From NCBI GenBank assembly GCA_021734405.1, contig JAIPJA010000004.1:1-50904 (forward strand): DNA of 50,904 nt. The letters run 5' to 3'. The notes beneath the pieces were generated by a model that was given only the letters and a program-made list of their open reading frames with translations, searched no databases and was not told where the DNA came from. Within the stretch, counting starts at the first letter, position 1; each line of letters opens with the position of its first letter. Positions 7,901 through 18,149 of this stretch are shown here, piece after piece. This DNA is from Minisyncoccota bacterium. GTDB lineage: Bacteria > Patescibacteriota > Patescibacteriia > Patescibacteriales > UBA12465. The position numbers and the translations under genes were made by a program.

Positions 7901-9908
7901 ATGAAAAATAATCAAGAAATTAGAAAGGCTATGGAGGTTAGACTTTCTGATCAGTTGCCGTCACCTCCGATTTTTGACGAAAAGTATAATAGAGCGCCAA
8001 AACGTGTTTGTGCTTTAACTAAAGATGAAATGGAATTATCTTTGCGAAATGCTTTAAGGTATGTTCCTGAAAATCTCCATCATGTATTAGCTCCAGAATT
8101 TTTGCAAGAATTAAAATCATTTGGGCGTATATATGGTTATCGCTTTCGTCCACAGGGCAGGATTTATGGTAAGCCCATTGATGAGTATGAAGGTATTATA
8201 GAAGCCAGGGCTATGCAAGTTATGATTGATAATAACCTTGATTTTGAAGTAGCTTTGTATCCTTATGAATTGGTGACTTATGGTGCGAATGGGCAGGTGT
8301 TTCAAAACTGGATGCAATATCGTTTGGTCAAGAAGTATCTATCAATTATGAGGAAAGATCAAACTTTAGTGGTTAGCTCTGGTCACCCCTTAGGACTTTT
8401 CCCTTCTTCTGAGAATGCTCCCAGAGTAATCATCACAAACGGTCTGCTTGTTGGTCATTGGGACAATGAAGATAATTTTAAAAAGTTAGCTGCATTAGGC
8501 GTTAGTAATTATGGACAAATGACTGCCGGTGGTTGGATGTATATAGGTCCTCAAGGAATAGTGCATGGCACTTTTATTACTATTTTAAATGCGGCTAGGA
8601 AATATCTAAAAATACAAGGTAGCTCTTTAGCTGGTGTGAATTTTGTTTCTTCTGGTTTGGGCGGCATGTCTTGTGCTCAGCCTAAAGCCATGAAGATAGC
8701 TGGTGGCGTAGCTGTGATTGCCGAAGTGGATAAAAAGAAAATTGATCTACGCTTACGTCAGGGGTGGATAGACACATACACTGATAGTTTAGATGAAGTT
8801 GTCAGGCAATTAAATAAAAACACTAAAGAGAAGAAGCCCCTGGCTCTCGCGTATCATGGTAATGTGGTTAGCCTCTTGGAACATCTAGCTTCTAGGAATG
8901 TAAAAGTTAATTTATTATCAGATCAAACTTCTTGTCATGCTATGAGTGAGGGCGGGTATATGCCGGTGGATCTAGAATTTGAATCTAGTAAAAAATTATT
9001 AGATATTGATTCTGAAAAATTTGAAGTTTTTGTAAACAAATCATTGTCGCGTCATTTTCAAGCTATAAAAAAATTAGTTGCCCAGGGCTCGTTTTTTTGG
9101 GATTATGGTAATAATTTTATGAGTTCTATTTTTGCAAGCGGTGAAAAGGCTATTACCAAAAATGGAGTTGATTTAAGTCAGGGGTTTATTTGGCCTTCCT
9201 ATGTAGAAGATGTTATGGGACCCATGTGTTTTGATTATGGCTTTGGTCCTTTCCGGTGGGTTTGTTTAAGTGGTAAACAGTCAGATTTAGACTTAACAGA
9301 TAATATCGCTTTAAATATTATTAATCCCAATAAATCATCTATGCATGCAGACAATTATAACTGGATTAAATCAGCTAAAGAAAATGAATTAGTAGTAGGT
9401 ACTAAAGCACGTATTTTTTATAGTGATGAAGAAGGTAGAGTTAAAATTGCTTTAGCCTTTAATAAAGCTGTGCGTGAAAATAAAACTGGACCTATTATGA
9501 TTGGCAGAGATCATCATGATGTTTCCGGAACTGACTCTCCCTTCAGGGAAACATCTGACATAAAAGATGGCAGTCAAAGTACAGCTGATATGTCTGTACA
9601 ATGTTTTGCTGGCAATGTGGCTAGAGGAATGAGTATAGTAGTTTTGTCTAATGGAGGAGGAGTAGGAATTAGTAGGGCCAGTAATGGGGGGGAATGGTAT
9701 CGTTTTAGATGGAAGCACTGAGACAGATAAAATTATTAAACTTGGTTTGTCTTGGGACGTGATGGGCGGAGTAGCTAGAAGAAGTTGGGCAAGAAGTAAA
9801 AATGCTATTAATACTGCTAAAGAATGGAATTTGAAGATGTTGGGAAAAGGGCAAATAACCTTGCCTTATACCGTGTCAGATGAAGTTTTATCTGATTTAA
9901 ATTTATAA
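7901..9908 (+). pseudogene. hutU: Urocanate hydratase (long ~670-aa type) with a +1 frameshift at G7 (9686-9692); either a true frameshift or a homopolymer sequencing error
   Basis: PYELVTYG, GQMTAG.WMYIGPQGIVHGT, SGLGGMS, DQTSCH, GRDHHDVSGTDSPFRET. ORF 7901-9721 leaves the family sequence after NGG, and the conserved end (G.VLDGS..WDVMGGVARRSWA) is in ORF 9684-9908. Removing one G gives a single 668-aa ORF. Confidence 0.93.
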
Positions 9909-10026: not shown

Positions 10027-10323
10027 ATGCAAAAATGTAAAATCAGGCAATTAGAGGCATCAACCAGGGATTTATATGAAGCTATTTTGTTAATTGATAA
10101 TTTAGAAGAAGCTACTAGTTTTTTTAGAGATTTATTAACAGAGCAAGAAATTATTGAGTTTAGTCGTCGTTGGCAAGCAGCTAGGTTATTAGACAAGAAA
10201 GTATCTTATATAGAAATTTCTAAGATTACTTGTTTGAGTTCCACTACTATAGCTAGGATATCTCGTTGGCTTAAAAATGGTTGTGGAGGCTACAAGAAGA
10301 TGTTAAATAAAATGAAAAAATAA
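10027..10323 (+). CDS. YerC/YecD (HisR) TrpR-family transcriptional repressor
   Basis: LYEAIL..FFRDLLT..E..RWQAARLL...SY.EI...TCLSSTTIARISRWL is the typical YerC/TrpR helix-turn-helix pattern. Confidence 0.9.
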   Translation: MQKCKIRQLEASTRDLYEAILLIDNLEEATSFFRDLLTEQEIIEFSRRWQAARLLDKKVSYIEISKITCLSSTTIARISRWLKNGCGGYKKMLNKMKK

Positions 10324-10374: not shown

Positions 10375-11142
10375 ATGAACAGTAAAAACATTAACAAAGT
10401 TTTTGTAATTAATGCTGCGGGTGGCAATGCCACAGCTATTATGTTACTTAAAGAGCCTCTTAGCAGAGAAGAGTATGCTAAAATCGGTAAAAGAATGATG
10501 AATGATTTTGAGTCGTTTCAGGTTGAACAAGCAGGTTTTTTGCTTTTAGATACGATGCACTTTGAAATGAGTGGTGGTGAATTCTGTGGAAATGCTGCTA
10601 GAGCAGCTGCCATGTTGTTTTTTGATTTAAGACAATCAAATAAATTTACCATGTCAGGATTTTTAGGTGAAATAGTATCAAGAGTTAAATATACCTCTAC
10701 TGATAAAAAGATAGCTGAAGTAAGTTGTGACTTTCCCTCTTTAAATCCAGTGCCCCAATTAACCGACATTAAAAATACCAAGATAGTTGATTTGGGAGGG
10801 ATTGTGCATATAGTTGTTAATGATAATTTTCCAAAAGAAGATTATCAGCAAATTCATACAAAATTGACCGAGAGATTTAACTTGCAGAACAAAGCGGCTG
10901 TTGGGGTTGTTTGGTACAATATTTCAGGCAATGATGCGCGTATTGATCCAGTCGTTTGGGTAAAAGATATTGATAGTTTTTTTTATGAGACTTCTTGCGG
11001 TTCAGGTTCTATTGCTGTTGCCAGCGTATCTGGTGCAGAAAATATTTTTCAGCCTAGCGGTGAAAAAATTATTGTTAAAATTAATAATGAAGGAGTAAAT
11101 TTAAAAAGTGATATGGAGGTTATCTATGAAAGCGATGATTAA
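10375..11142 (+). CDS. PLP-independent DapF-fold amino-acid racemase, histidine racemase (CntK-like) subfamily
   Basis: GGNAT, EQAGF, MSGGEFCGNA, YETSCGSGS and QPSG parallel the S. aureus CntK motifs (SGNMT, EQVGF, MSGNEFCGNA, ENSCGSG, QPGG). It lacks the DapF hallmarks GNDF, GNPH and ERG.GET.ACGTG. Confidence 0.8.
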   Translation: MNSKNINKVFVINAAGGNATAIMLLKEPLSREEYAKIGKRMMNDFESFQVEQAGFLLLDTMHFEMSGGEFCGNAARAAAMLFFDLRQSNKFTMSGFLGEIVSRVKYTSTDKKIAEVSCDFPSLNPVPQLTDIKNTKIVDLGGIVHIVVNDNFPKEDYQQIHTKLTERFNLQNKAAVGVVWYNISGNDARIDPVVWVKDIDSFFYETSCGSGSIAVASVSGAENIFQPSGEKIIVKINNEGVNLKSDMEVIYESDD

Positions 11143-11719
11143 GCAATTTACAGGTGATATTAATGGCCCTGTCTCTCGAGATTTTGTTAATCTTTACAAA
11201 AAGGTGTTTGCTGAGCCACCTTACTTTGAAAGCTATGAAGACTGTTGGATTTTTGAGAATATTTGGCATTATCATTTAGTTAAAGGATGTATTTTTTTGG
11301 CTTTTGATAAAGATAAATTGATTGGTTTTGGTTGCGGGGTAGGCATGGATAAAGTAGAAAAATTTTTGCCACAAAGCTCTGCCTTAGATCCACTCTTTAA
11401 AGTTAAATGTTTTTTACGGGACGAGGCTAGTGAGTATATTAACGGGAACTCTTTTTTTTATATGTCTGAAATAGGGGTAGATTCTAAATATAGAAGACAA
11501 GGGGTGGGTGGTTTACTTATAACTAGAAGATGGCTATGGGCTGCTCATAACAATTATAAGAATTATCTTATGAGAACTGATGAATTAAATAGTAATTCAC
11601 GTTCTTTGTACGAAAATTTAGGAGCAGAAATTTTACCCATCAAACAAGATGTCTCCGATCATGCCGCTATTATTAATTCTGCTAGCAAAACCAGAATTTA
11701 TTTGCATGGTTCATTGTAA
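11126..11719 (+). CDS. GNAT-family N-acetyltransferase
   Basis: Motif A IGVDSKYRRQGVGGLL and N..SRSLYENLG. ATG 11126 has GGAGG at 11115-11119 and overlaps the racemase end, suggesting translational coupling. Confidence 0.85.
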   Translation: MKAMIKQFTGDINGPVSRDFVNLYKKVFAEPPYFESYEDCWIFENIWHYHLVKGCIFLAFDKDKLIGFGCGVGMDKVEKFLPQSSALDPLFKVKCFLRDEASEYINGNSFFYMSEIGVDSKYRRQGVGGLLITRRWLWAAHNNYKNYLMRTDELNSNSRSLYENLGAEILPIKQDVSDHAAIINSASKTRIYLHGSL

Positions 11720-11783: not shown

Positions 11784-12500
11784 ATGGATAAAAAAATTTT
11801 AACATATAAAGAATTGCAAAAGATAAGAGCTGGTGAAAATGATGATGCTTTAGTATCATTGAATAATTATTTTCCTACAGCAATATTTTGTAAATATGAA
11901 AAATTAGACATGTTGCCTTGGTCTGGTAATCATATTTTAATTAGAGAATCTATAGCTGAAAAACTTAAAAAAGCAGCTTTTAATTTACAAAAAATAGATA
12001 AAACTTTGCAGTTTAAAGTTGTTTATGGGTATAGGCATCCCACTATTCAAAAAAAATATTTTTTAAAACAAAAAAAATTATTATCTTTAAAATATTCTAA
12101 ATTAAATAATAAAGAATTAATTAATTTAACTCATAATTTTGTAGCCTCTCCAGATGTGGCGGGTCATCCCTGTGGAGCCGCCATAGATTTAACAATAATT
12201 AAAAATGGCAAGCCCCTAGCTATGGGAACTAAAATAGCTGACTTCAATAATCCCGAAGCCATTAAAACTTTTTATAAGAAGCTTACAGAAACCCAAAAAT
12301 TAAACAGATTAATGTTAAGAAAACTTATAATGGATCAAGGGTTTGCTCCTTTTAATGGTGAATGGTGGCATTTTTCTTATGGAGATAAGGAGTGGGCATT
12401 TTATTATAAACAAAAATCCTCTCTATATTCATCTTTATCATTGACAAAAAAAGAAATATATAATATTATAAATAAAAATAAGATAAAATCGGGTGTGTAG
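11784..12500 (+). CDS. M15 family (VanX/DdpX-like) D,D-dipeptidase
   Basis: YGYRHP, Zn ligands GHPCGAAIDLT, catalytic EWWHFSYGD; no signal peptide. Confidence 0.9.
   Translation: MDKKILTYKELQKIRAGENDDALVSLNNYFPTAIFCKYEKLDMLPWSGNHILIRESIAEKLKKAAFNLQKIDKTLQFKVVYGYRHPTIQKKYFLKQKKLLSLKYSKLNNKELINLTHNFVASPDVAGHPCGAAIDLTIIKNGKPLAMGTKIADFNNPEAIKTFYKKLTETQKLNRLMLRKLIMDQGFAPFNGEWWHFSYGDKEWAFYYKQKSSLYSSLSLTKKEIYNIINKNKIKSGV
12441..12469 (+). promoter_or_regulatory. tRNA promoter embedded in the 3' end of the dipeptidase gene
   Basis: TTGACA 12441-12446, 17 bp spacer, TATTAT 12464-12469; about 20 bp upstream of the tRNA. Confidence 0.65.
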
Positions 12501-12564
12501 CTCAGTTGGCTAGAGCAATAGATTGTGGATCTAAAGGTCGCGGGTTCGAATCCCGTCATACCCT
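12491..12564 (+). tRNA. tRNA-His (GUG), atypical: no genomic G-1, U73 discriminator, CCA not encoded
   Basis: Acceptor GGGTGTG/CATACCC; D arm GCTC-AGTTGGCTA-GAGC; anticodon arm ATAGA-TTGTGGA-TCTAA; T arm GCGGG-TTCGAAT-CCCGT. Confidence 0.93.
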
Positions 12565-12567
12565 CTT

Positions 12568-12595
12568 GACCTGTAAACTTACAGGTCTTTTTTTT
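12568..12595 (+). terminator. Intrinsic terminator after the tRNA
   Basis: GACCTGTA 12568-12575 / TACAGGTC 12580-12587 followed by T8. Confidence 0.85.
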
Positions 12596-12622
12596 GACAA
12601 TTTATATTTCTTTTGATAAATT
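12594..12622 (+). promoter_or_regulatory. Promoter for hisS-hutH
   Basis: TTGACA 12594-12599, 17 bp spacer, extended -10 TG-A-TAAATT (TAAATT 12617-12622). Confidence 0.55.
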
Positions 12623-12664
12623 GAAATAATAATTTAGTTCATTGATAATTTAATACTTATAAAC

Positions 12665-14062
12665 ATGGAAAGAATAATCAAGCCAGAAAGACCGGCTGGG
12701 TTTATTGATTATAATACAGAATATTTTTTAGCCAGAGAATCTATGGTTAATAAAATAAGTAAAGTTTTCAGATCTTTTGGTTATAATCCAATTGAAACTC
12801 CATTAGCTGAATTCCTTAAAACCTTAGTTGGTACTGATGAAACTTCTAAAAATATTTTTTCATTAAGAAGTTTAAATTCGTCTTCAGGAGACGATGATAT
12901 TGCTTTGAGATTTGATCACACTGTGCCTTTCGCTCGTTTTTTAGCGGCTAATCCTTACAATAAAGAAAATCAATCAGGCATTAAATTGCCATGGAGAAGG
13001 TCCGTCTATGGTCCAGTGTTTCGTGGTGACACCCCCCAAAAAGGCAGGTTTAGGCAGTTTTATCAATTTGATATTGATGTGGCTGGCTCTTCTTCTATGC
13101 TTGCTGACGCTGAGATAGTTGCTGTTATCTATAACACATTAAAAGAGCTATCCATTTCTAACTTTGTTATTAAAGTGAATAACAGAAAAATATTAAATGG
13201 TTTTATTGATCTTCTAAACATAAAAAAAAGAGGGGAAATTAGTGCTAATGAAATTGCTATGGAGATAATGAGAATTTTAGATAAAATTCAAAAAAATTCA
13301 TGGGACATTGTAAAACAAGAATTAGCGCAAAAACCAGTTAATAAATTTGATGTTAGCCCAGGGCTTATTAAGGAAGATATTGTGAAAATTGAAAGATTCT
13401 TGCGCTTACAGGGTAGCAATGATGAAAAAATTACTCAATGTTTTTCTTTATTTTCTGGAATTAAAATTGCTGAGGATGGCTTAACAGAGTTAAGAAAAAT
13501 GTTAGAATTTTTATCATGCCAAACCGTAGATCTCGATTATGTAAAAATAGATTTTTCTGTTGCTAGAGGCTTAGATTATTACACTGGCCCAGTATTTGAA
13601 ACATTTATTAATTCAGCCCTCGAATTTGGTAGTATTTTTTCTGGTGGTCGTTATGATGAATTGTTTTCTAGATTTACAGGAAAGAAATTACCTGCCGTAG
13701 GGGCTTCGATTGGTGTTGATAGATTTTTTTCAGTTTTAAACCATTTAAATCTTCTAAACCTGAAACAAAAAAAAGTTGCCGATGTAATTATTTTACGATT
13801 ATCGGATGATGATAAATTTATTCAGGATTATCTATTTTTCGCTGATAGCTTAAGAAAATTAGGTGTAAACGCCGAGATAAGCTTATTGGAAAATAAAGAT
13901 TTTTCTGCTCAATTTAATTTTGCTATTAGTCAAAGTTATAATTACGCTTTAATTTTTGGCGAAAGAGAGCGGGAGAAAAATGTTGTTGTTATCAAAGATT
14001 TAATAAAAAGAGAACAGAAAGAATTAAAATTTTCGGAATTTAATAATTTTTTTAAATCATAA
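12665..14062 (+). CDS. hisS: Histidine--tRNA ligase (long-insertion, eukaryote/alphaproteobacteria-like type)
   Basis: LRFDHTVP, motif 2 FRGDTPQKGRFRQFYQFD, ARGLDYYTG, SGGRYD, AVGASIGVDR and a C-terminal anticodon-binding domain (so not HisZ). Confidence 0.95.
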   Translation: MERIIKPERPAGFIDYNTEYFLARESMVNKISKVFRSFGYNPIETPLAEFLKTLVGTDETSKNIFSLRSLNSSSGDDDIALRFDHTVPFARFLAANPYNKENQSGIKLPWRRSVYGPVFRGDTPQKGRFRQFYQFDIDVAGSSSMLADAEIVAVIYNTLKELSISNFVIKVNNRKILNGFIDLLNIKKRGEISANEIAMEIMRILDKIQKNSWDIVKQELAQKPVNKFDVSPGLIKEDIVKIERFLRLQGSNDEKITQCFSLFSGIKIAEDGLTELRKMLEFLSCQTVDLDYVKIDFSVARGLDYYTGPVFETFINSALEFGSIFSGGRYDELFSRFTGKKLPAVGASIGVDRFFSVLNHLNLLNLKQKKVADVIILRLSDDDKFIQDYLFFADSLRKLGVNAEISLLENKDFSAQFNFAISQSYNYALIFGEREREKNVVVIKDLIKREQKELKFSEFNNFFKS

Positions 14063-14073
14063 AAATTTATATC

Positions 14074-15738
14074 ATGAATGAAATTGTAATAAATGGCCAA
14101 AATTTAAGTATCCAAGATACAATTTTGGTTGCTCGTGGTTATCACGATGGTTATCGACATCATTTTCCTTTAGTAGTTTTAGATGAAGAGATAAAAGAAA
14201 AGCTTAAAATATTTCGTGAAGCTTTAGAAGAGAGAATTGCTGCTAAAGACATTATGTATGGCGTCAATACGGGTTGCGGAATAAAAAAAGGAACTGTTAT
14301 TTCTGCTGATGAAATTAACAATTATCAGAAGCATTACATTCCTGCGCATTGTGTTGCTATTGGAGAATTTTTTCCAGAAGAAGTAGTGAGGGCAGCTATG
14401 ATTTTTAGGGTAAATTCTTTTGCCCTTGGACACTCTGGCGTTAGACTTGAGTTGTGTGAGAAAATTTTGGAATTTTACAATAAAGGTATTATTCCTTGCG
14501 TACCTTCTCAAGGCTCAGTAGGTTCTAGTGGTGATTTGTGCTTTTTAGCTCATATTTCAGCGGCATTGATAGGTTTAAAAGAACAACAAGTTTTTTTCGA
14601 GGGAGAAATAATGTCTTGTGAAGTGGCTCTTGAAAAAGCTAGAGTGCAACCGATTAGTCTAAAAGCAAAAGAGGCCATGGCTCTTACCAATGGGTCGACC
14701 TTTATTTTGGCTCAGGGTATATTAGCTATTTATGACATTGAAAATTTGATTGATACTGCTAATATAGCAGCAGCTTTGTCGTTAGAAGCTATTAGAGGAG
14801 AGATTGATGCTTTTGACGAAAGAGTTCATGCCATTAGAAAAAGCGAAGGAGCTAATAATTGTGCTCAGGTGATTAGAGATTTATGTTGCGAATCGAAAAG
14901 AATGAGTAAAGCCTCACAAGATAAAACCTTGCCAGCCGAAAAACACATCAAAAAATTTGATGTTCAAGGGAAACCTGTTCCTAGAGTCCAAGATGCCTAT
15001 TCATTTAGAGCACATGCTCAGGTTATGGGATCTGTTATGGAAGCTTTTGATTTTTGTAAAGAAATTTTTAAGAGAGAATTAAATGCTGCCACTGACAATC
15101 CTTTAATTTTTGAAGAAGGTGACGGTTTTAGAGCTATATCAGGGGGCAATTTTCATGGAGAGCCTTTAGCCCAAGCAGCAGATTTTTTAAAAATTGCTGT
15201 ACAACAATTAGCCAATATTTCAGATCGTCGCTTTTATGCGCTAACCATGCCCAGTACCAGCTACGGCTTACCAGCTGATTTAGTTGGTTTGAGTAATCCA
15301 GATTTAAATACTGGCTTAATGATTTTGCAGTATAGTACGGCTGCATTGGTAAATGAAAATAAAAGCCTTTGCCATCCAAGTGTTATTGACTCTATTCCAA
15401 CCTCAGCTAATCAGGAGGACTATGTTTCCATGGGGGCAACTTCTGCTAAGTTTTTACGTAAAGTTGTAGAAAATACGACTTATGTTGTTGCGGCGGAATT
15501 ATTAGCCGCTGCCCAAGGAATTTCCTGGACTGAAGAAGATTTAGGACCTGATTTAAGTCCTTTAGGCACTAAAACGAAACGGGCTTATAATTTTATTCGT
15601 CAATATGTAAAAGTCATGGATGATGATAGATTTATTCAAGCAGATTGGCTTAAAATCATTGAGCAGATCAAAAACCAGGAATTTGTTAGATATGTTTATG
15701 ATGACAACCCTGGTTGTCGTTATTTGCACATACATTAA
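14074..15738 (+). CDS. hutH: Histidine ammonia-lyase (MIO family)
   Basis: YGVNTG, His at the specificity position (PAH), GSVGSSGDL, KEAMALTNG, QDAYSFR, DNP..SGGNFHG, NQEDYVSMG. Confidence 0.9.
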   Translation: MNEIVINGQNLSIQDTILVARGYHDGYRHHFPLVVLDEEIKEKLKIFREALEERIAAKDIMYGVNTGCGIKKGTVISADEINNYQKHYIPAHCVAIGEFFPEEVVRAAMIFRVNSFALGHSGVRLELCEKILEFYNKGIIPCVPSQGSVGSSGDLCFLAHISAALIGLKEQQVFFEGEIMSCEVALEKARVQPISLKAKEAMALTNGSTFILAQGILAIYDIENLIDTANIAAALSLEAIRGEIDAFDERVHAIRKSEGANNCAQVIRDLCCESKRMSKASQDKTLPAEKHIKKFDVQGKPVPRVQDAYSFRAHAQVMGSVMEAFDFCKEIFKRELNAATDNPLIFEEGDGFRAISGGNFHGEPLAQAADFLKIAVQQLANISDRRFYALTMPSTSYGLPADLVGLSNPDLNTGLMILQYSTAALVNENKSLCHPSVIDSIPTSANQEDYVSMGATSAKFLRKVVENTTYVVAAELLAAAQGISWTEEDLGPDLSPLGTKTKRAYNFIRQYVKVMDDDRFIQADWLKIIEQIKNQEFVRYVYDDNPGCRYLHIH

Positions 15739-16946: not shown

Positions 16947-18149
16947 ATGAATAACTTAGACAAAGAAAAAAAAGCAGAGGAAATTGTACAAAGAGGTATA
17001 ATTTCTCAAATATTGCCTGATAAAAAAGATTTTAAAAATAAACTTGTAAAAGACAAGCTTCGCTTTTATATCGGGGCTGATCCAACTTCTACGGCTCTAC
17101 ATTTAAGCCATGCTAAAAATTACATGCTTTTAGAAGAGTTTCGACAGTTAGGACATGAGGTTATTGTTTTAATTGGAGACTTTACTGCTCGTATTGGCGA
17201 TCCTACAGATAAGGGCTCAGCCAGAGTGCAACTGAGTAAAGAAGATGTTGAAAAAAATGTTGTAGATTGGGTTAAACAAATTAAACCACTTTTAAATTTT
17301 GATGACAAAGATAATCCTGCCAAGATTATGTATAATAGTGCTTGGCTGTCTAAGTTGACCATGGAAGATGTAGTTGAATTAGCTTCTAATACTACGGTTC
17401 AACAGATGCTGGAGAGAGATATGTTTGAGAAAAGAATGAAGGAGAATAAACCCATATTTTTACATGAGTTTATGTATCCTTTAATGCAAGGTTATGATAG
17501 TGTAGCTATGGATGTAGATGTTGAGCTTTGTGGAACTGATCAAATATTTAATGCTCTAATGGGCAGGACTTTACTTAAAAAATTAAAGAATAAAGATAAG
17601 TTTGTGGTAGCTGTTAATTTAATGGAAAATCCTGTAACTGGAGAATTAATGTCTAAAAGCCGGGGCACAGGTATATTCTTGAATTTCTCTGCTAAAGAAA
17701 TGTATGGAGCAATTATGTCTCAGTCAGATGAGATGATAAAGGTGTTTTTAATAAATAATACTAGAGTTCCCTTACAGGAAATTGAGGAAATTATGAAAGC
17801 GGAAAACCCTAGGGATGCAAAAATGAGAACTGCTTTTGAAGTTGTTAAAGTTTTCCGCGGAGACAAGGAAGCTAAAGAAGCTCAAGATGATTTTATAGCT
17901 AAATTTCAAACTAAAGAAGTGCCTGATAATTTAGAAGAAATTAACTTAGGTAAAGATGAGGCCGAATTGTTTGAAATTTTAAAAGCCGGTCTTTCTAATT
18001 TAAGTAATAGTGATATTAGAAGATTAGTAGATCAAGGAGCTATTAAAATTGATGGGGAGGAGAAGAAGGATATAAAAGAGGTAATTGATATTTCTTCAGG
18101 AGTGGTGGTAAAGGCTGGGAAGAAGAATTGGTTTAAGACGGTTGGGTAG
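16947..18149 (+). CDS. tyrS: Tyrosine--tRNA ligase
   Basis: YIGADPT..LHLSH, IGDFTARIGDP, YPLMQGYDS, GTDQ.FN, MSKS, C-terminal S4 domain. Confidence 0.96.
   Translation: MNNLDKEKKAEEIVQRGIISQILPDKKDFKNKLVKDKLRFYIGADPTSTALHLSHAKNYMLLEEFRQLGHEVIVLIGDFTARIGDPTDKGSARVQLSKEDVEKNVVDWVKQIKPLLNFDDKDNPAKIMYNSAWLSKLTMEDVVELASNTTVQQMLERDMFEKRMKENKPIFLHEFMYPLMQGYDSVAMDVDVELCGTDQIFNALMGRTLLKKLKNKDKFVVAVNLMENPVTGELMSKSRGTGIFLNFSAKEMYGAIMSQSDEMIKVFLINNTRVPLQEIEEIMKAENPRDAKMRTAFEVVKVFRGDKEAKEAQDDFIAKFQTKEVPDNLEEINLGKDEAELFEILKAGLSNLSNSDIRRLVDQGAIKIDGEEKKDIKEVIDISSGVVVKAGKKNWFKTVG

What the first reader, a model, noticed from the sequence alone, without database searches (positions are those of the whole stretch)
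12490..12567. tRNA-His(GUG) lacking the near-universal G-1:C73 identity pair
Seen: a 7-bp acceptor stem GGGTGTG/CATACCC, preceded by C (12490) and followed by T (12564) then CTT, plus an A27-A43 mismatch. Known: bacterial tRNA-His encodes G-1 opposite C73 as the main HisRS determinant. The recognised bacterial exception (some Alphaproteobacteria) lacks G-1 but has A73, while U73 is typical of tRNA-Cys and tRNA-Gly. The alternative reading (G12491 as -1, C12563 as 73) leaves an abnormal 6-bp stem. No Thg1 gene is in the window. Inference: a new tRNA-His identity set, or a tRNA specialised for non-ribosomal use.
Basis: partly seen in the sequence, partly recalled or inferred. Interest (0 to 1): 0.85.

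Follow-up and report, generated by a model that had tools for sequence, protein, structure and literature searches.

The report
Spare histidine tRNA without G-1
This is a real histidine tRNA gene that lacks the usual extra 5' G and has U instead of C at position 73. It is most likely a second, spare histidine tRNA that travels with its own charging enzyme inside a histidine-breakdown gene cluster, so two histidine tRNA recognition rules probably coexist in one tiny bacterium.

Summary
Window 12491-12564 is a high-scoring tRNA-His(GUG) with a 7-bp acceptor stem, C at -1, U at 73 and no encoded CCA.

The context changes the reading. In this assembly that gene most likely lies in a gap, together with its usual neighbour tRNA-Arg(UCU).

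The window's tRNA belongs to a rare second type, found in 10 of 316 genomes of the order. It always sits on the same contig as a third histidyl-tRNA synthetase ("HisRS2") that is followed directly by a histidine ammonia-lyase. Urocanase, a histidine-racemase-like gene, a TrpR-like regulator, a GNAT and an M15 peptidase are also nearby.

Across 11 orthologous tRNAs the cloverleaf covaries, but positions -1/73 drift:
- G-1:C73 in 3
- A73 without G-1 in 3
- U73 without G-1 in 5

Best reading: a natural accessory HisRS/tRNA-His pair that does not depend on G-1. It resembles the extra hisS of histamine islands and the G-1-less pairs of alpha-proteobacteria and Trypanosoma brucei (which also has U73). 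Charging and expression are untested.

Earlier notes of this scan describe similar modules on other DNA. My literature searches found no description.

The parts
12491..12564 (+). tRNA-His(GUG) of the second type ('tRNA-His2'), positions 1-73. It has G1-C72, U73 and an A27-A43 mismatch. There is no encoded G-1 (C at 12490) and no encoded CCA.
   Evidence: ARAGORN. Rfam RF00005 at 68.2 bits. Sequence read. Cloverleaf covariation among 10 orthologues.
12441..12469 (+). Sigma-70-like promoter, TTGACA-17-TATTAT, about 20 nt upstream of the tRNA.
   Evidence: Consensus scan, 11 of 12 matches. This is a pattern match only. Promoter-like sites are not enriched overall in this AT-rich stretch (12 found against 8.2 expected).
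12568..12595 (+). Intrinsic terminator: an 8-bp GC-containing hairpin plus a T8 run, starting 4 nt after position 73.
   Evidence: Terminator scan: 5 found against 0.5 expected in shuffles. Similar hairpins follow the orthologous tRNAs of G019 and G004 (read).
12665..14062 (+).
   Evidence: TIGR00442 hisS at 325.9 bits, above the 286.75 cut-off. Best PDB hits are 3net, 6nhi and human HisRS. Orthologues at 49-58% identity occur only in genomes that carry tRNA-His2.
14074..15738 (+). Histidine ammonia-lyase family (MIO) enzyme. It directly follows HisRS2 in all 7 relatives whose contig continues past HisRS2.
   Evidence: Pfam Lyase_aromatic, E 3e-155. NCBIfam HutH models score 504 and 477 bits, just under their cut-offs of 524 and 539. 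Synteny.
7901..9721 (+). Urocanate hydratase (HutU), long form.
   Evidence: TIGR01228 at 398.2 bits, above the 375 cut-off. Syntenic in G019, G146, G129 and G004 and in L174.
10027..10323 (+). TrpR-related YerC/YecD-family regulator.
   Evidence: Pfam Trp_repressor, E 7e-19. TIGR02531 at 63.4 bits, above the 42.2 cut-off. Syntenic.
10375..11142 (+). DapF-fold, cofactor-independent racemase most similar to histidine racemase.
   Evidence: NF052224, E 1.9e-22, but 80 bits against a cut-off of 400. Best PDB hit is histidine racemase 9cr6, E 6.4e-13, with both Cys motifs aligned. Syntenic.
11108..11719 (+). GNAT-family acyltransferase of unknown substrate.
   Evidence: Pfam Acetyltransf_1, E 4e-10. 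Syntenic in G129, G142 and G004 and in L174.
11784..12500 (+). M15 (VanX/D-Ala-D-Ala dipeptidase-like) peptidase. Its reading frame runs through the tRNA promoter and ends 10 nt inside the tRNA.
   Evidence: Pfam Peptidase_M15, E 7e-16. Syntenic in G004, G142 and G129 and in L174.

Best explanation
The gene encodes a functional second histidine tRNA (tRNA-His2). It forms a co-inherited pair with an accessory synthetase (HisRS2) inside a portable histidine-handling cluster. That cluster holds a dipeptidase, a racemase-like enzyme, a GNAT, a regulator, urocanase and histidine ammonia-lyase.

Proposed mechanism, with each step marked:
1. The tRNA is transcribed from its own promoter to its own terminator. 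This is a sequence pattern only.
2. RNase P cuts at +1, because C-1 cannot pair with U73, so the mature tRNA starts at G1. Inferred.
3. CCA is added enzymatically. The enzyme family is present; the step itself is inferred.
4. HisRS2 charges it with histidine without needing G-1:C73, presumably reading the invariant anticodon loop and the G1-G3 stem start. Inferred from linkage, co-distribution and the free drift of -1/73.
5. The canonical HisRS enzymes, which elsewhere depend on G-1, should use it poorly, which would make the pair semi-orthogonal. Inferred from E. coli and yeast data.
6. The pair keeps a protected supply of His-tRNA for translation while the neighbouring lyase and urocanase consume histidine, as proposed for the extra hisS of lactobacillal histamine islands. 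This is by analogy.

The organism's ordinary G-1:C73 tRNA-His most likely exists but is unassembled.
For: It is a real tRNA under selection:
- Rfam scores it 68.2 bits.
- Among 10 orthologues, 94.5% of cells pair and 10 of 22 pairs change on both sides. 0 of 500 shuffles reach this, and slid controls give 30-49% paired.

It is accessory:
- The tRNA-His2 signature occurs in 10 of 316 genomes of the order, all in one family.
- Canonical G-1:C73 tRNA-His is present in 20 of 20 typed relatives from all 16 genera. It is verified in carriers G004, G019, G012, G119, G121, G146 and G111 (partial).

It is paired with HisRS2:
- HisRS2 orthologues at 49-58% identity occur in 8 of 147 other family genomes. 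These are exactly tRNA-His2 carriers, and the gene is always on the same contig, 0.1-9 kb from the tRNA. The next best match is 40%.
- G000 has three hisS-grade genes. The C40 copy is the order-wide housekeeping one.

The cluster is conserved:
- HAL follows HisRS2 in 7 of 7 relatives whose contig continues. The other cluster genes are syntenic in several.
- A metagenome contig, L174, has the identical gene order and a tRNA with C-1 and U73.

The identity position is labile:
- -1/73 reads G:C in 3, A73 in 3 and U73 in 5 of 11.
- These states are spread over a monophyletic HisRS2 clade (SH-aLRT 99, quick tree).
- The sister Desulfobacterales-type enzymes sit in genomes with canonical tRNA-His.
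- HisRS2-type enzymes lack two of the three arginines that hold the G-1 phosphate in T. thermophilus. R7 is A or G and R115 is T, S, Q or K (with PMC4357726 passages).

The processing machinery is present or absent as expected:
- RNase P RNA is present.
- The CCA-adding enzyme family is present.
- Thg1 is absent.

The canonical gene is probably in a gap:
- tRNA-Arg(tct) lies beside canonical tRNA-His in 9 relatives.
- The homologue of the flanking gene in G001 ends 138 nt from the start of contig C9.
- AGA makes up 171 of 277 Arg codons, yet tRNA-Arg(tct) is not in the assembly.

Precedents: C. crescentus (PMC3064791), T. brucei with U73 (PMC4338351), and the HDC-island hisS (PMC5313534).
Against: - No expression or charging data exist. 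No RNA run was available.
- The canonical tRNA-His of this genome is inferred, not seen. If it is truly lost, this tRNA is the sole decoder.
- The motif-2 loop, including the Gln equivalent to E. coli Q118, does not covary with base 73 in HisRS2. In alpha-proteobacteria it does. The protein therefore shows no clear adaptation to the loss of G-1.
- The missing arginines are also missing in relatives that serve G-1:C73 tRNAs, so they are not specific to the G-1-less state.
- Free drift at -1/73, the A27-A43 mismatch here and the tandem U-U mismatches in three orthologues could instead reflect relaxed selection.
- No T-box or other known leader precedes HisRS2, unlike the HDC-island hisS.
- HutI was not found, so the 'catabolic' half of the cluster is incomplete and its purpose is unclear.
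- The tree is the quick version. The careful search did not finish.
Confidence: 0.6

Rival explanations
1. First reader's main reading. This is the organism's only tRNA-His, so the whole proteome is decoded through a new bacterial identity set (no G-1, U73).
For: It is the only tRNA-His in the assembly by ARAGORN and by Rfam. BLAST with a relative's canonical tRNA-His finds nothing in G000. The genome is 95.6% complete.
Against: - The assembly also lacks tRNA-Asn, tRNA-Phe and tRNA-Arg(tct). AGA makes up 62% of Arg codons, so essential tRNAs are plainly unassembled.
- tRNA-Arg(tct) is the conserved neighbour of canonical tRNA-His in 9 relatives.
- The syntenic flank in G000 runs off contig C9.
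- 7 of the 9 other carriers were shown to keep a canonical tRNA-His. The remaining two have canonical-type strings that I did not fetch.
Confidence: 0.08
2. Dedicated non-ribosomal carrier. HisRS2 loads tRNA-His2 with L- or D-histidine for an aminoacyl-tRNA-dependent transferase, perhaps the neighbouring GNAT. That enzyme would modify a cell-wall precursor or a small molecule. The changed acceptor end would keep the tRNA out of the translational pool.
For: - The cluster holds a histidine-racemase-like enzyme with both catalytic cysteines, a GNAT-fold protein and a D-Ala-D-Ala-dipeptidase-like M15 peptidase. All are syntenic with the pair.
- Identity at -1/73 is unconstrained.
- A pyrimidine at 73 is an anti-determinant for bacterial D-aminoacyl-tRNA deacylase (bioRxiv 10.1101/322289, passages), and a DTD gene is present.
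Against: - The GNAT has no detectable similarity to Fem, L/F-transferase or MprF families; it matches only generic acetyltransferase models.
- The tRNA keeps a fully standard T-loop, D-loop and anticodon loop.
- Three orthologues have A73, which DTD prefers.
- Canonical C73 is also a pyrimidine, so the DTD argument does not set U73 apart.
- In several carriers the tRNA lies up to 9 kb from HisRS2, with no transferase nearby.
Confidence: 0.12
3. Sensor or regulatory role. The charging level of tRNA-His2 reports histidine availability and tunes the cluster, for example through the TrpR-like regulator or through HisRS2 acting as a HisZ/Gcn2-like sensor. It would not mainly supply translation.
For: - A TrpR-related YerC/YecD regulator is a conserved member of the cluster.
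- HisRS-like domains act as sensors elsewhere: HisZ models also hit HisRS2 at 165 bits, and Gcn2 is a known case (abstract listing).
- The tRNA has its own promoter and terminator.
Against: - HisRS2 passes the hisS equivalog cut-off and fails the hisZ cut-off, 164.9 against 271.65.
- It keeps the catalytic motifs.
- No T-box or other riboswitch-like element was found in the window at gathering thresholds.
- No known mechanism links TrpR-family proteins to tRNA.
Confidence: 0.08
4. Decaying duplicate. tRNA-His2 came in with a horizontally acquired HisRS and is now redundant and drifting. On this reading the loss of G-1:C73 and the stem mismatches are early pseudogenisation.
For: - -1/73 differs among close orthologues.
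- A27-A43 is mismatched here.
- Tandem U-U mismatches at 4:69 and 5:68 occur in G146, G121 and G111.
- Distribution is sporadic, 10 of 316 genomes.
Against: - Helices keep pairing through compensatory double changes in 10 of 22 pairs. D and T stems are 100% paired.
- Its Rfam score is in the middle of the range of the genome's other tRNAs.
- U73 with C-1 is shared by G000 and L174, whose HisRS2 proteins are only about 53-58% identical.
- The anticodon loop is nearly invariant.
- The promoter and terminator are intact.
Confidence: 0.07

Closest known systems
G-1-less tRNA-His/HisRS pair of a subgroup of alpha-proteobacteria (Caulobacter crescentus; Wang 2007 recalled from reference lists; Yuan 2011, PMC3064791, passages read)
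   Same: - A bacterial tRNA-His without an encoded G-1 and without C73.
- A 9-nt D-loop.
- Served by a divergent HisRS.
- In Caulobacter the pair is orthogonal to the E. coli pair and relies on the anticodon.
- One orthologue here (G012) even has the full alpha-proteobacterial set: G1-U72, A73 and encoded CCA.
   Different: - Here base 73 is U and 1:72 is G-C.
- The pair is an extra one beside a canonical system, not the cell's only system.
- HisRS2 forms a clade separate from the alpha-proteobacterial-type enzymes.
- Its motif-2 loop does not covary with base 73.
- The -1/73 state varies within the clade.
Trypanosoma brucei tRNA-His and its G-1-independent HisRS (Rao and Jackman 2015, PMC4338351, passages read)
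   Same: No G-1, no Thg1 and a U73 discriminator. That paper says U73 is found in no other annotated tRNA-His.
   Different: - That system is eukaryotic and is the cell's only one.
- Trypanosomatid HisRS is only a weak match to HisRS2 (T. cruzi entry 3hrk, 78.7 bits, against 184 for human). It is in fact closer to this genome's C31 paralogue (T. brucei and T. cruzi entries 3hri/3hrk, 177-178 bits).
- In T. brucei, U73 alone was not an identity element.
Extra hisS in histidine decarboxylase islands of Lactobacillus parabuchneri/buchneri, and tyrS in tyramine clusters (PMC5313534, passages; PMC3315439, abstract listing)
   Same: A second, horizontally mobile synthetase gene sits next to an enzyme that consumes its amino acid. 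A tRNA gene lies beside it in the island table. The authors propose that it secures His-tRNA charging while histidine is being consumed.
   Different: - That hisS has a histidine T-box leader; none was found here.
- The consuming enzyme there is a decarboxylase, not HAL and urocanase.
- No altered tRNA identity is reported there.
CPR bacteria with archaeal-type TyrRS/TrpRS and matching tRNA identities (Mukai et al. 2017, PMC5370408, abstract and passages)
   Same: Candidate-phyla-radiation bacteria that carry a laterally acquired synthetase together with a tRNA whose identity elements break the bacterial rule.
   Different: That work concerns Tyr and Trp. In the passages I read, histidine is mentioned only through the alpha-proteobacterial case.

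Membership tests
tRNA (Rfam RF00005), histidine isoacceptor | Cloverleaf matching the covariance model above the gathering score | tested here: met
   68.2 bits against 29, covering model positions 1-71 of 71.
tRNA (Rfam RF00005), histidine isoacceptor | Anticodon GUG | tested here: met
   ARAGORN reports anticodon gtg. GTG is at 12525-12527.
Canonical bacterial tRNA-His identity set | Genome-encoded G at position -1 | tested here: not met
   C at 12490. The register is fixed by alignment with G-1-bearing orthologues.
Canonical bacterial tRNA-His identity set | C73 discriminator able to pair with G-1 | tested here: not met
   T at 12564.
Canonical bacterial tRNA-His identity set | G-1 added after transcription by Thg1/TLP as an alternative route | tested here: not met
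   PF04446 has 0 matches in the 95.6%-complete genome. The control genome M. acetivorans rings. The mature 5' end itself cannot be tested here.
Alpha-proteobacterial G-1-less tRNA-His/HisRS pair | No G-1 | tested here: met
Alpha-proteobacterial G-1-less tRNA-His/HisRS pair | A73 and G1-U72 (PMC3064791) | tested here: not met
   U73 and G1-C72 here. Only orthologue G012 has A73 with G1-U72.
Alpha-proteobacterial G-1-less tRNA-His/HisRS pair | 9-nt D-loop with U20a | tested here: met
   The D-loop AGTTGGCTA is 9 nt. Assigning the T to position 20a is my own numbering.
Alpha-proteobacterial G-1-less tRNA-His/HisRS pair | HisRS of the divergent alpha-proteobacterial type | tested here: not met
   HisRS2 is 31-34% identical to alpha-proteobacterial MAG enzymes and falls in a different clade of the quick tree.
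Trypanosoma-type G-1-independent system | No G-1, U73 and no Thg1 | tested here: met
   PMC4338351.
Trypanosoma-type G-1-independent system | Cognate HisRS related to the trypanosomal enzyme | tested here: not met
   3hrk scores 78.7 bits, well below Nostoc 3net (196.6) and human HisRS (184).
Functional histidyl-tRNA synthetase (TIGR00442 hisS) | Score above the equivalog cut-off, with both catalytic and anticodon-binding domains | tested here: met
   325.9 bits against 286.75. Pfam tRNA-synt_His plus HGTP_anticodon. The hisZ model scores below its cut-off.
Functional histidyl-tRNA synthetase (TIGR00442 hisS) | Charges tRNA-His2 with histidine | not testable with these tools
   Needs an aminoacylation assay.
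Amino-acid-consuming island with a spare synthetase (HDC-island type) | An extra hisS beside a histidine-consuming enzyme, in addition to a housekeeping hisS | tested here: met
   HAL starts 11 nt after HisRS2. The housekeeping copy is on C40. The linkage is conserved in 7 of 7 relatives whose contig continues past HisRS2.
Amino-acid-consuming island with a spare synthetase (HDC-island type) | Histidine T-box leader in front of the extra hisS | tested here: not met
   No T-box or other Rfam family besides tRNA in the window at gathering thresholds.

The most novel reading that the evidence does not exclude
Two (or three) histidine-charging channels with different tRNA identity rules coexist in one 1-Mb cell. 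The hut-linked channel (HisRS2 with the U73, G-1-less tRNA-His2) would be a naturally orthogonal pair reserved for a job outside bulk translation. One candidate job is carrying histidine, possibly D-histidine made by the neighbouring racemase, to an aminoacyl-tRNA-dependent transferase that modifies the envelope or a metabolite. The drift at -1/73 would then be the footprint of escape from the translational HisRS.
Probability: 0.12. Interest if true: 0.85.

Novelty: new variant of a known kind. Interest (0 to 1): 0.62.

Why it matters
G-1:C73 is one of the most conserved tRNA identity marks in biology. The 2023 identity review lists only alpha-proteobacteria, a few protists and a nematode mitochondrion as exceptions.

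This case is different in two ways. The same orthologous tRNA shows G-1:C73, A73 or U73 in sister lineages. It also sits beside a canonical tRNA-His in the same cell.

If HisRS2 really charges these tRNAs, three things follow:
- The clade is a natural experiment on how a synthetase becomes independent of G-1.
- It is a ready-made source of orthogonal HisRS/tRNA pairs.
- It is a case of two identity rules for one amino acid in a minimal genome.

It also ties tRNA charging to histidine scavenging and breakdown in bacteria that cannot make amino acids.

A practical point: annotation pipelines would wrongly report this genome as having an aberrant sole tRNA-His.

Tried and rejected
- **BLAST survey.** BLAST with the tRNA recovered only 3 tRNA-His among 40 relatives. 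It mostly hit Val, Asp and Ala tRNAs. I replaced it with a covariance model and pattern scans.
- **Covariance model R1.** R1 did not separate His from other class-I tRNAs below about 80 bits.
- **A suspected third tRNA-His type.** The string TTGTGGCGACAC... turned out to be the variable arm of tRNA-Leu(taa).
- **A second flank for the gap argument.** The 60-nt match between G001:C58 and G000:C10 is an intergenic motif, not synteny, so I dropped it. The gap argument rests on C9 and on the missing tRNA-Arg(tct).
- **Protein covariation with tRNA type.** I looked for covariation between HisRS2 and the tRNA's -1/73 state in the motif-2 loop and in the loop equivalent to T. thermophilus Gly72-Gly73. 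No clean pattern emerged.
- **Outgroup loci.** HisRS2-like genes of Desulfobacterales, Magnetococcales and Moraniibacteria have no HAL or tRNA-His within about 6 kb. 13 of the 15 metagenome loci at 49-60% identity have none within the DNA held.
- **Expression.** No RNA holder was listed. The laid runs are DNA contigs only. X3 and X4 matched only short conserved tRNA parts.
- **DTD/discriminator idea.** Both U and C at 73 are equally poor for E. coli DTD, so this does not explain a change from C to U.
- **Tree.** The careful tree search did not finish in 300 s. The quick tree was used.
- **Not run.** I made no structure prediction and no complex prediction, because no claim here depends on protein-protein binding.
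Full report
**1. The observation**

ARAGORN finds a single tRNA in the window, tRNA-His(gtg), at 12491-12565. Rfam's tRNA model matches 12491-12564 end to end at 68.2 bits (gathering score 29, E 7.6e-13).

Read directly:
- The acceptor stem is GGGTGTG/CATACCC, 7 bp with one G-U.
- The base before it is C (12490). The discriminator is T (12564). CTT follows, so CCA is not encoded.
- A27 (12518) faces A43 (12534).

The register is not ambiguous. Orthologues that do encode G-1 carry one extra G in front of the same GGG start and have C at 73 (alignment A2).

Thg1 (PF04446) has no match anywhere in the 95.6%-complete, 1.01-Mb, 51-contig genome. A type-A RNase P RNA is present (209.7 bits) and so is the CCA-adding enzyme family.

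Contigs of the probable source run show no difference over 12200-12900. A second sample of the same study shows none over 12200-12538. That stretch includes position -1 but does not reach position 73.

**2. It is probably not the organism's only tRNA-His**

ARAGORN and Rfam both find 35 tRNAs in the genome and only this one tRNA-His. The assembly also lacks tRNA-Asn, tRNA-Phe and tRNA-Arg(tct).

All 20 have G at -1, a GTG... acceptor stem, a 4-nt variable loop and C73. This includes the only other genome of the same genus, G001.

In 9 relatives this canonical gene lies just downstream of tRNA-Arg(tct). In G001 the gene upstream of that tRNA pair has its homologue at G000:C9:139-1364, pointing off the contig start. 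The tRNAs would lie 0.8-1.1 kb further on.

AGA makes up 171 of 277 arginine codons in nine window genes. tRNA-Arg(UCU) must therefore exist and is simply unassembled. Its usual neighbour, the canonical tRNA-His, is most probably missing for the same reason. A second apparent flank match, to contig C10, proved to be a 60-nt intergenic motif and I dropped it.

**3. A second type of tRNA-His, tied to a third HisRS**

A covariance model built from four sequences and a signature pattern find the window's type of tRNA in only 10 of 316 genomes of the order. That type has a GGG start, a 5-nt variable loop and the anticodon loop ATTGTGGMT. The ten genomes are G000, G004, G012, G019, G111, G119, G121, G129, G142 and G146, all in one family.

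Five further pattern matches have other arm sequences. Of these, G162 was typed as canonical. G137, G176, G219 and G229 were not typed.

The genome has three genes that pass NCBI's hisS equivalog cut-off of 286.75 bits:
- **C40 (368.4 bits).** This copy has 44-80% identical orthologues across the order and is the housekeeping enzyme.
- **C31 (316.9 bits).** This is a second paralogue at family level. Its best solved relatives are archaeal and trypanosomal HisRS.
- **The window copy, HisRS2 (325.9 bits).** It has 49-58% identical orthologues in 8 of the 147 other family genomes, and all 8 are carriers of the second tRNA. The gene is always on the same contig, 0.1-9 kb from the tRNA. The next best match is 40%. 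G111, a 150-contig assembly, has the tRNA but no HisRS2 was found.

The other carriers also keep a canonical tRNA-His. It is verified in G004, G019, G012, G119, G121 and G146, and partly in G111. G129 and G142 have canonical-type strings that I did not fetch.

**4. The neighbourhood is a histidine cluster**

Around the pair lie:
- urocanase (TIGR01228, 398 bits, above 375);
- a TrpR-related YerC/YecD regulator;
- a DapF-fold racemase whose best family and PDB hits are histidine racemases (NF052224, E 2e-22, but far below its cut-off; 9cr6, E 6e-13), with both catalytic Cys motifs aligned;
- a GNAT;
- a VanX-like M15 peptidase;
- directly after HisRS2, a histidine-ammonia-lyase-family enzyme.

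HAL follows HisRS2 in all 7 relatives whose contig continues past HisRS2. The other genes are syntenic in several. A metagenome contig, L174, has exactly the same gene order.

HutI was not found in the genome, so the classical Hut pathway is incomplete.

The tRNA has its own near-consensus promoter (TTGACA-17-TATTAT) and a hairpin-plus-T8 terminator. No T-box or other known RNA element lies in the window at gathering thresholds.

**5. Where HisRS2 comes from**

Its best solved relatives are Nostoc (3net), Elizabethkingia (6nhi; the species name is recalled, not from a call) and human cytoplasmic HisRS. They are not the T. thermophilus or E. coli enzymes.

Its nearest database relatives are labelled Falkowbacteria, Patescibacteria and, at the same 52-54% identity, Desulfobacterales: Desulfonema, Electrothrix and Magnetomorum.

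In Desulfobacterales, Magnetococcales and Moraniibacteria genomes the gene has no HAL or tRNA neighbour.

In a quick maximum-likelihood tree the hut-linked enzymes form one clade (SH-aLRT 99), sister to the Desulfobacterales-type group. The subclades are (G000, L174) at 94, (G129, (G019, G004)) at 97 and (G119, (G146, G121)) at 100. The careful search did not finish.

**6. The identity position drifts while the tRNA stays a tRNA**

Among 10 orthologues, 94.5% of cells in 22 pairs are standard pairs and 10 pairs show changes on both sides. 0 of 500 shuffles reach these values, and slid controls give 30-49% paired. D and T stems are 100% paired.

By contrast, -1/73 varies across the 11 genes (the 10 above plus L174):

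| -1/73 state | Genomes or contigs |
|---|---|
| G:C | G004, G019, G129 |
| no G-1, A73 | G012 (with G1-U72 and encoded CCA, the alpha-proteobacterial pattern), G121, G111 |
| no G-1, U73 | G000, L174, G142, G119, G146 |

Mapped on the HisRS2 tree, and with outgroups serving canonical tRNAs, this needs several changes of state. G142 is known only from a partial protein that looks closest to the G-1:C73 subgroup.

U73 with C-1 is shared by G000 and L174, whose HisRS2 proteins are only about 53-58% identical. The state is therefore old and maintained.

In G142 and G119 an A at -1 could pair with U73, and in G111 a U could pair with A73. That makes 3 of 8 genes without an encoded G-1, which is not clearly more than chance in AT-rich flanks.

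**7. What the enzyme shows**

I mapped T. thermophilus contacts (R7, R115 and R122 on the G-1 phosphate; Gly72-Gly73 pocket; PMC4357726 passages) through alignments.

All HisRS2-type enzymes have A or G at the R7 position and T, S, Q or K at the R115 position. They keep R122 and the motif-2 Gln. This holds for members with and without G-1 tRNAs, and for the Desulfobacterales group.

It is therefore compatible with a class that leans less on the G-1 phosphate, but it is not specific to the loss. I found no residue that covaries cleanly with base 73. In alpha-proteobacteria such covariation is reported (review PMC9976931).

**8. Most likely mechanism**

See the best explanation. In short, this is an accessory HisRS2/tRNA-His2 pair that does not depend on G-1, within a histidine-scavenging and histidine-consuming cluster.

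| Status | Points |
|---|---|
| Shown | gene structure; linkage; co-distribution; covariation; lability of -1/73; presence or absence of the processing enzymes |
| Inferred | processing at +1; charging by HisRS2; poor use by the other HisRS; use in translation |
| By analogy | the purpose: securing His-tRNA while HAL and urocanase run, as proposed for the extra hisS of histamine islands (PMC5313534) |

Rivals are the sole-tRNA reading, a non-ribosomal carrier, a sensor and a decaying duplicate.

**9. Comparison with what is known**

G-1-less tRNA-His is known in:
- a subgroup of alpha-proteobacteria, with A73, G1-U72 and anticodon-based recognition (PMC3064791);
- Acanthamoeba, and Trypanosoma brucei, whose U73 was described as unique among annotated tRNA-His (PMC4338351);
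- C. elegans mitochondria (review).

CPR bacteria with archaeal Tyr and Trp identities are described (PMC5370408).

The following searches found no paper describing a bacterial U73 G-1-less tRNA-His or a HisRS-HAL-tRNA-His module:
- tRNAHis, G-1, Patescibacteria;
- tRNAHis, U73, discriminator;
- histidine ammonia-lyase, histidyl-tRNA synthetase, Patescibacteria;
- tRNAHis, candidate phyla radiation, HisRS.

Earlier AI notes of this scan, on other genomes, describe second HisRS/tRNA-His pairs without G-1 and HisRS-HAL-tRNA clusters in Patescibacteria. They agree with this reading and gave me the histamine-island lead. They are not independent evidence.

**10. Verdict**

- The feature is real and unusual, and it is maintained.
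This is a spare channel, not the cell's main one.
- Novelty: a new variant of a known kind.
- Interest: moderate to high for tRNA-identity and orthogonal-pair work. It is limited by the complete lack of expression and charging data.

Noticed in passing
G000:C40 (L032:1168-2514, - strand) and G000:C31 (L031:1471-2739, + strand): This 1-Mb genome has three full-length hisS-grade genes. C40 is the order-wide housekeeping copy and sits next to a queuosine-synthesis gene (queA family). C31 is a second paralogue at family level, and its best solved relatives are archaeal (1wu7) and trypanosomal (3hri/3hrk) HisRS. Most genomes of the family seem to carry two HisRS, but I found only one canonical tRNA-His type.
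   Followed up: partly
L093-L110 (e.g. G001:C48:2920-4149, G006:C1:452935-454209): About 20 family genomes carry yet another HisRS type, 35-40% identical to HisRS2. In the quick tree it groups with alpha-proteobacterial-type HisRS. No tRNA-His lies within 1.5 kb of it.
   Followed up: partly
window 10375-11142: A DapF-fold racemase whose closest characterised relatives are histidine racemases (F. nucleatum HisR, S. aureus CntK), with both catalytic cysteine motifs. It is conserved in the cluster. A D-histidine link in a CPR bacterium has not been described in the papers listed.
   Followed up: partly
whole genome G000: HutH-like and HutU genes are present, but no imidazolonepropionase (HutI, TIGR01224) match was found. 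The histidine pathway appears to stop at imidazolone propionate, or to use an unrecognised enzyme.
   Followed up: no
L041:1501-1575, L040:1501-1575, L039:1500-1574: The tRNA-His2 genes of G146, G121 and G111 share tandem U-U mismatches at acceptor pairs 4:69 and 5:68. These are conserved across three genomes with different discriminators.
   Followed up: no
L037:1501-1577 (G012:C4): One orthologue has the complete alpha-proteobacterial-style set (no G-1, G1-U72, A73, 9-nt D-loop) plus an encoded CCA. It lies directly upstream of its HisRS2.
   Followed up: partly
window 11784-12500 versus 12441-12500: The M15 peptidase reading frame runs through the tRNA's promoter and ends 10 nt inside the tRNA gene. 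The tRNA promoter therefore lies inside coding sequence.
   Followed up: no
G000:C10:588-654 and L123 (G001:C58):2552-2611: A roughly 60-nt intergenic motif, about 80% identical, is shared between unrelated places of two genomes of the genus. It may be one of the cassette-site-like repeats noted earlier for this genome.
   Followed up: no
window 16947-18149: A TyrRS gene lies 1.2 kb downstream of the histidine cluster, after an S66 LD-carboxypeptidase. Only G004 showed a (weak, 37% identity) homologue nearby, so it is probably not part of the module.
   Followed up: no
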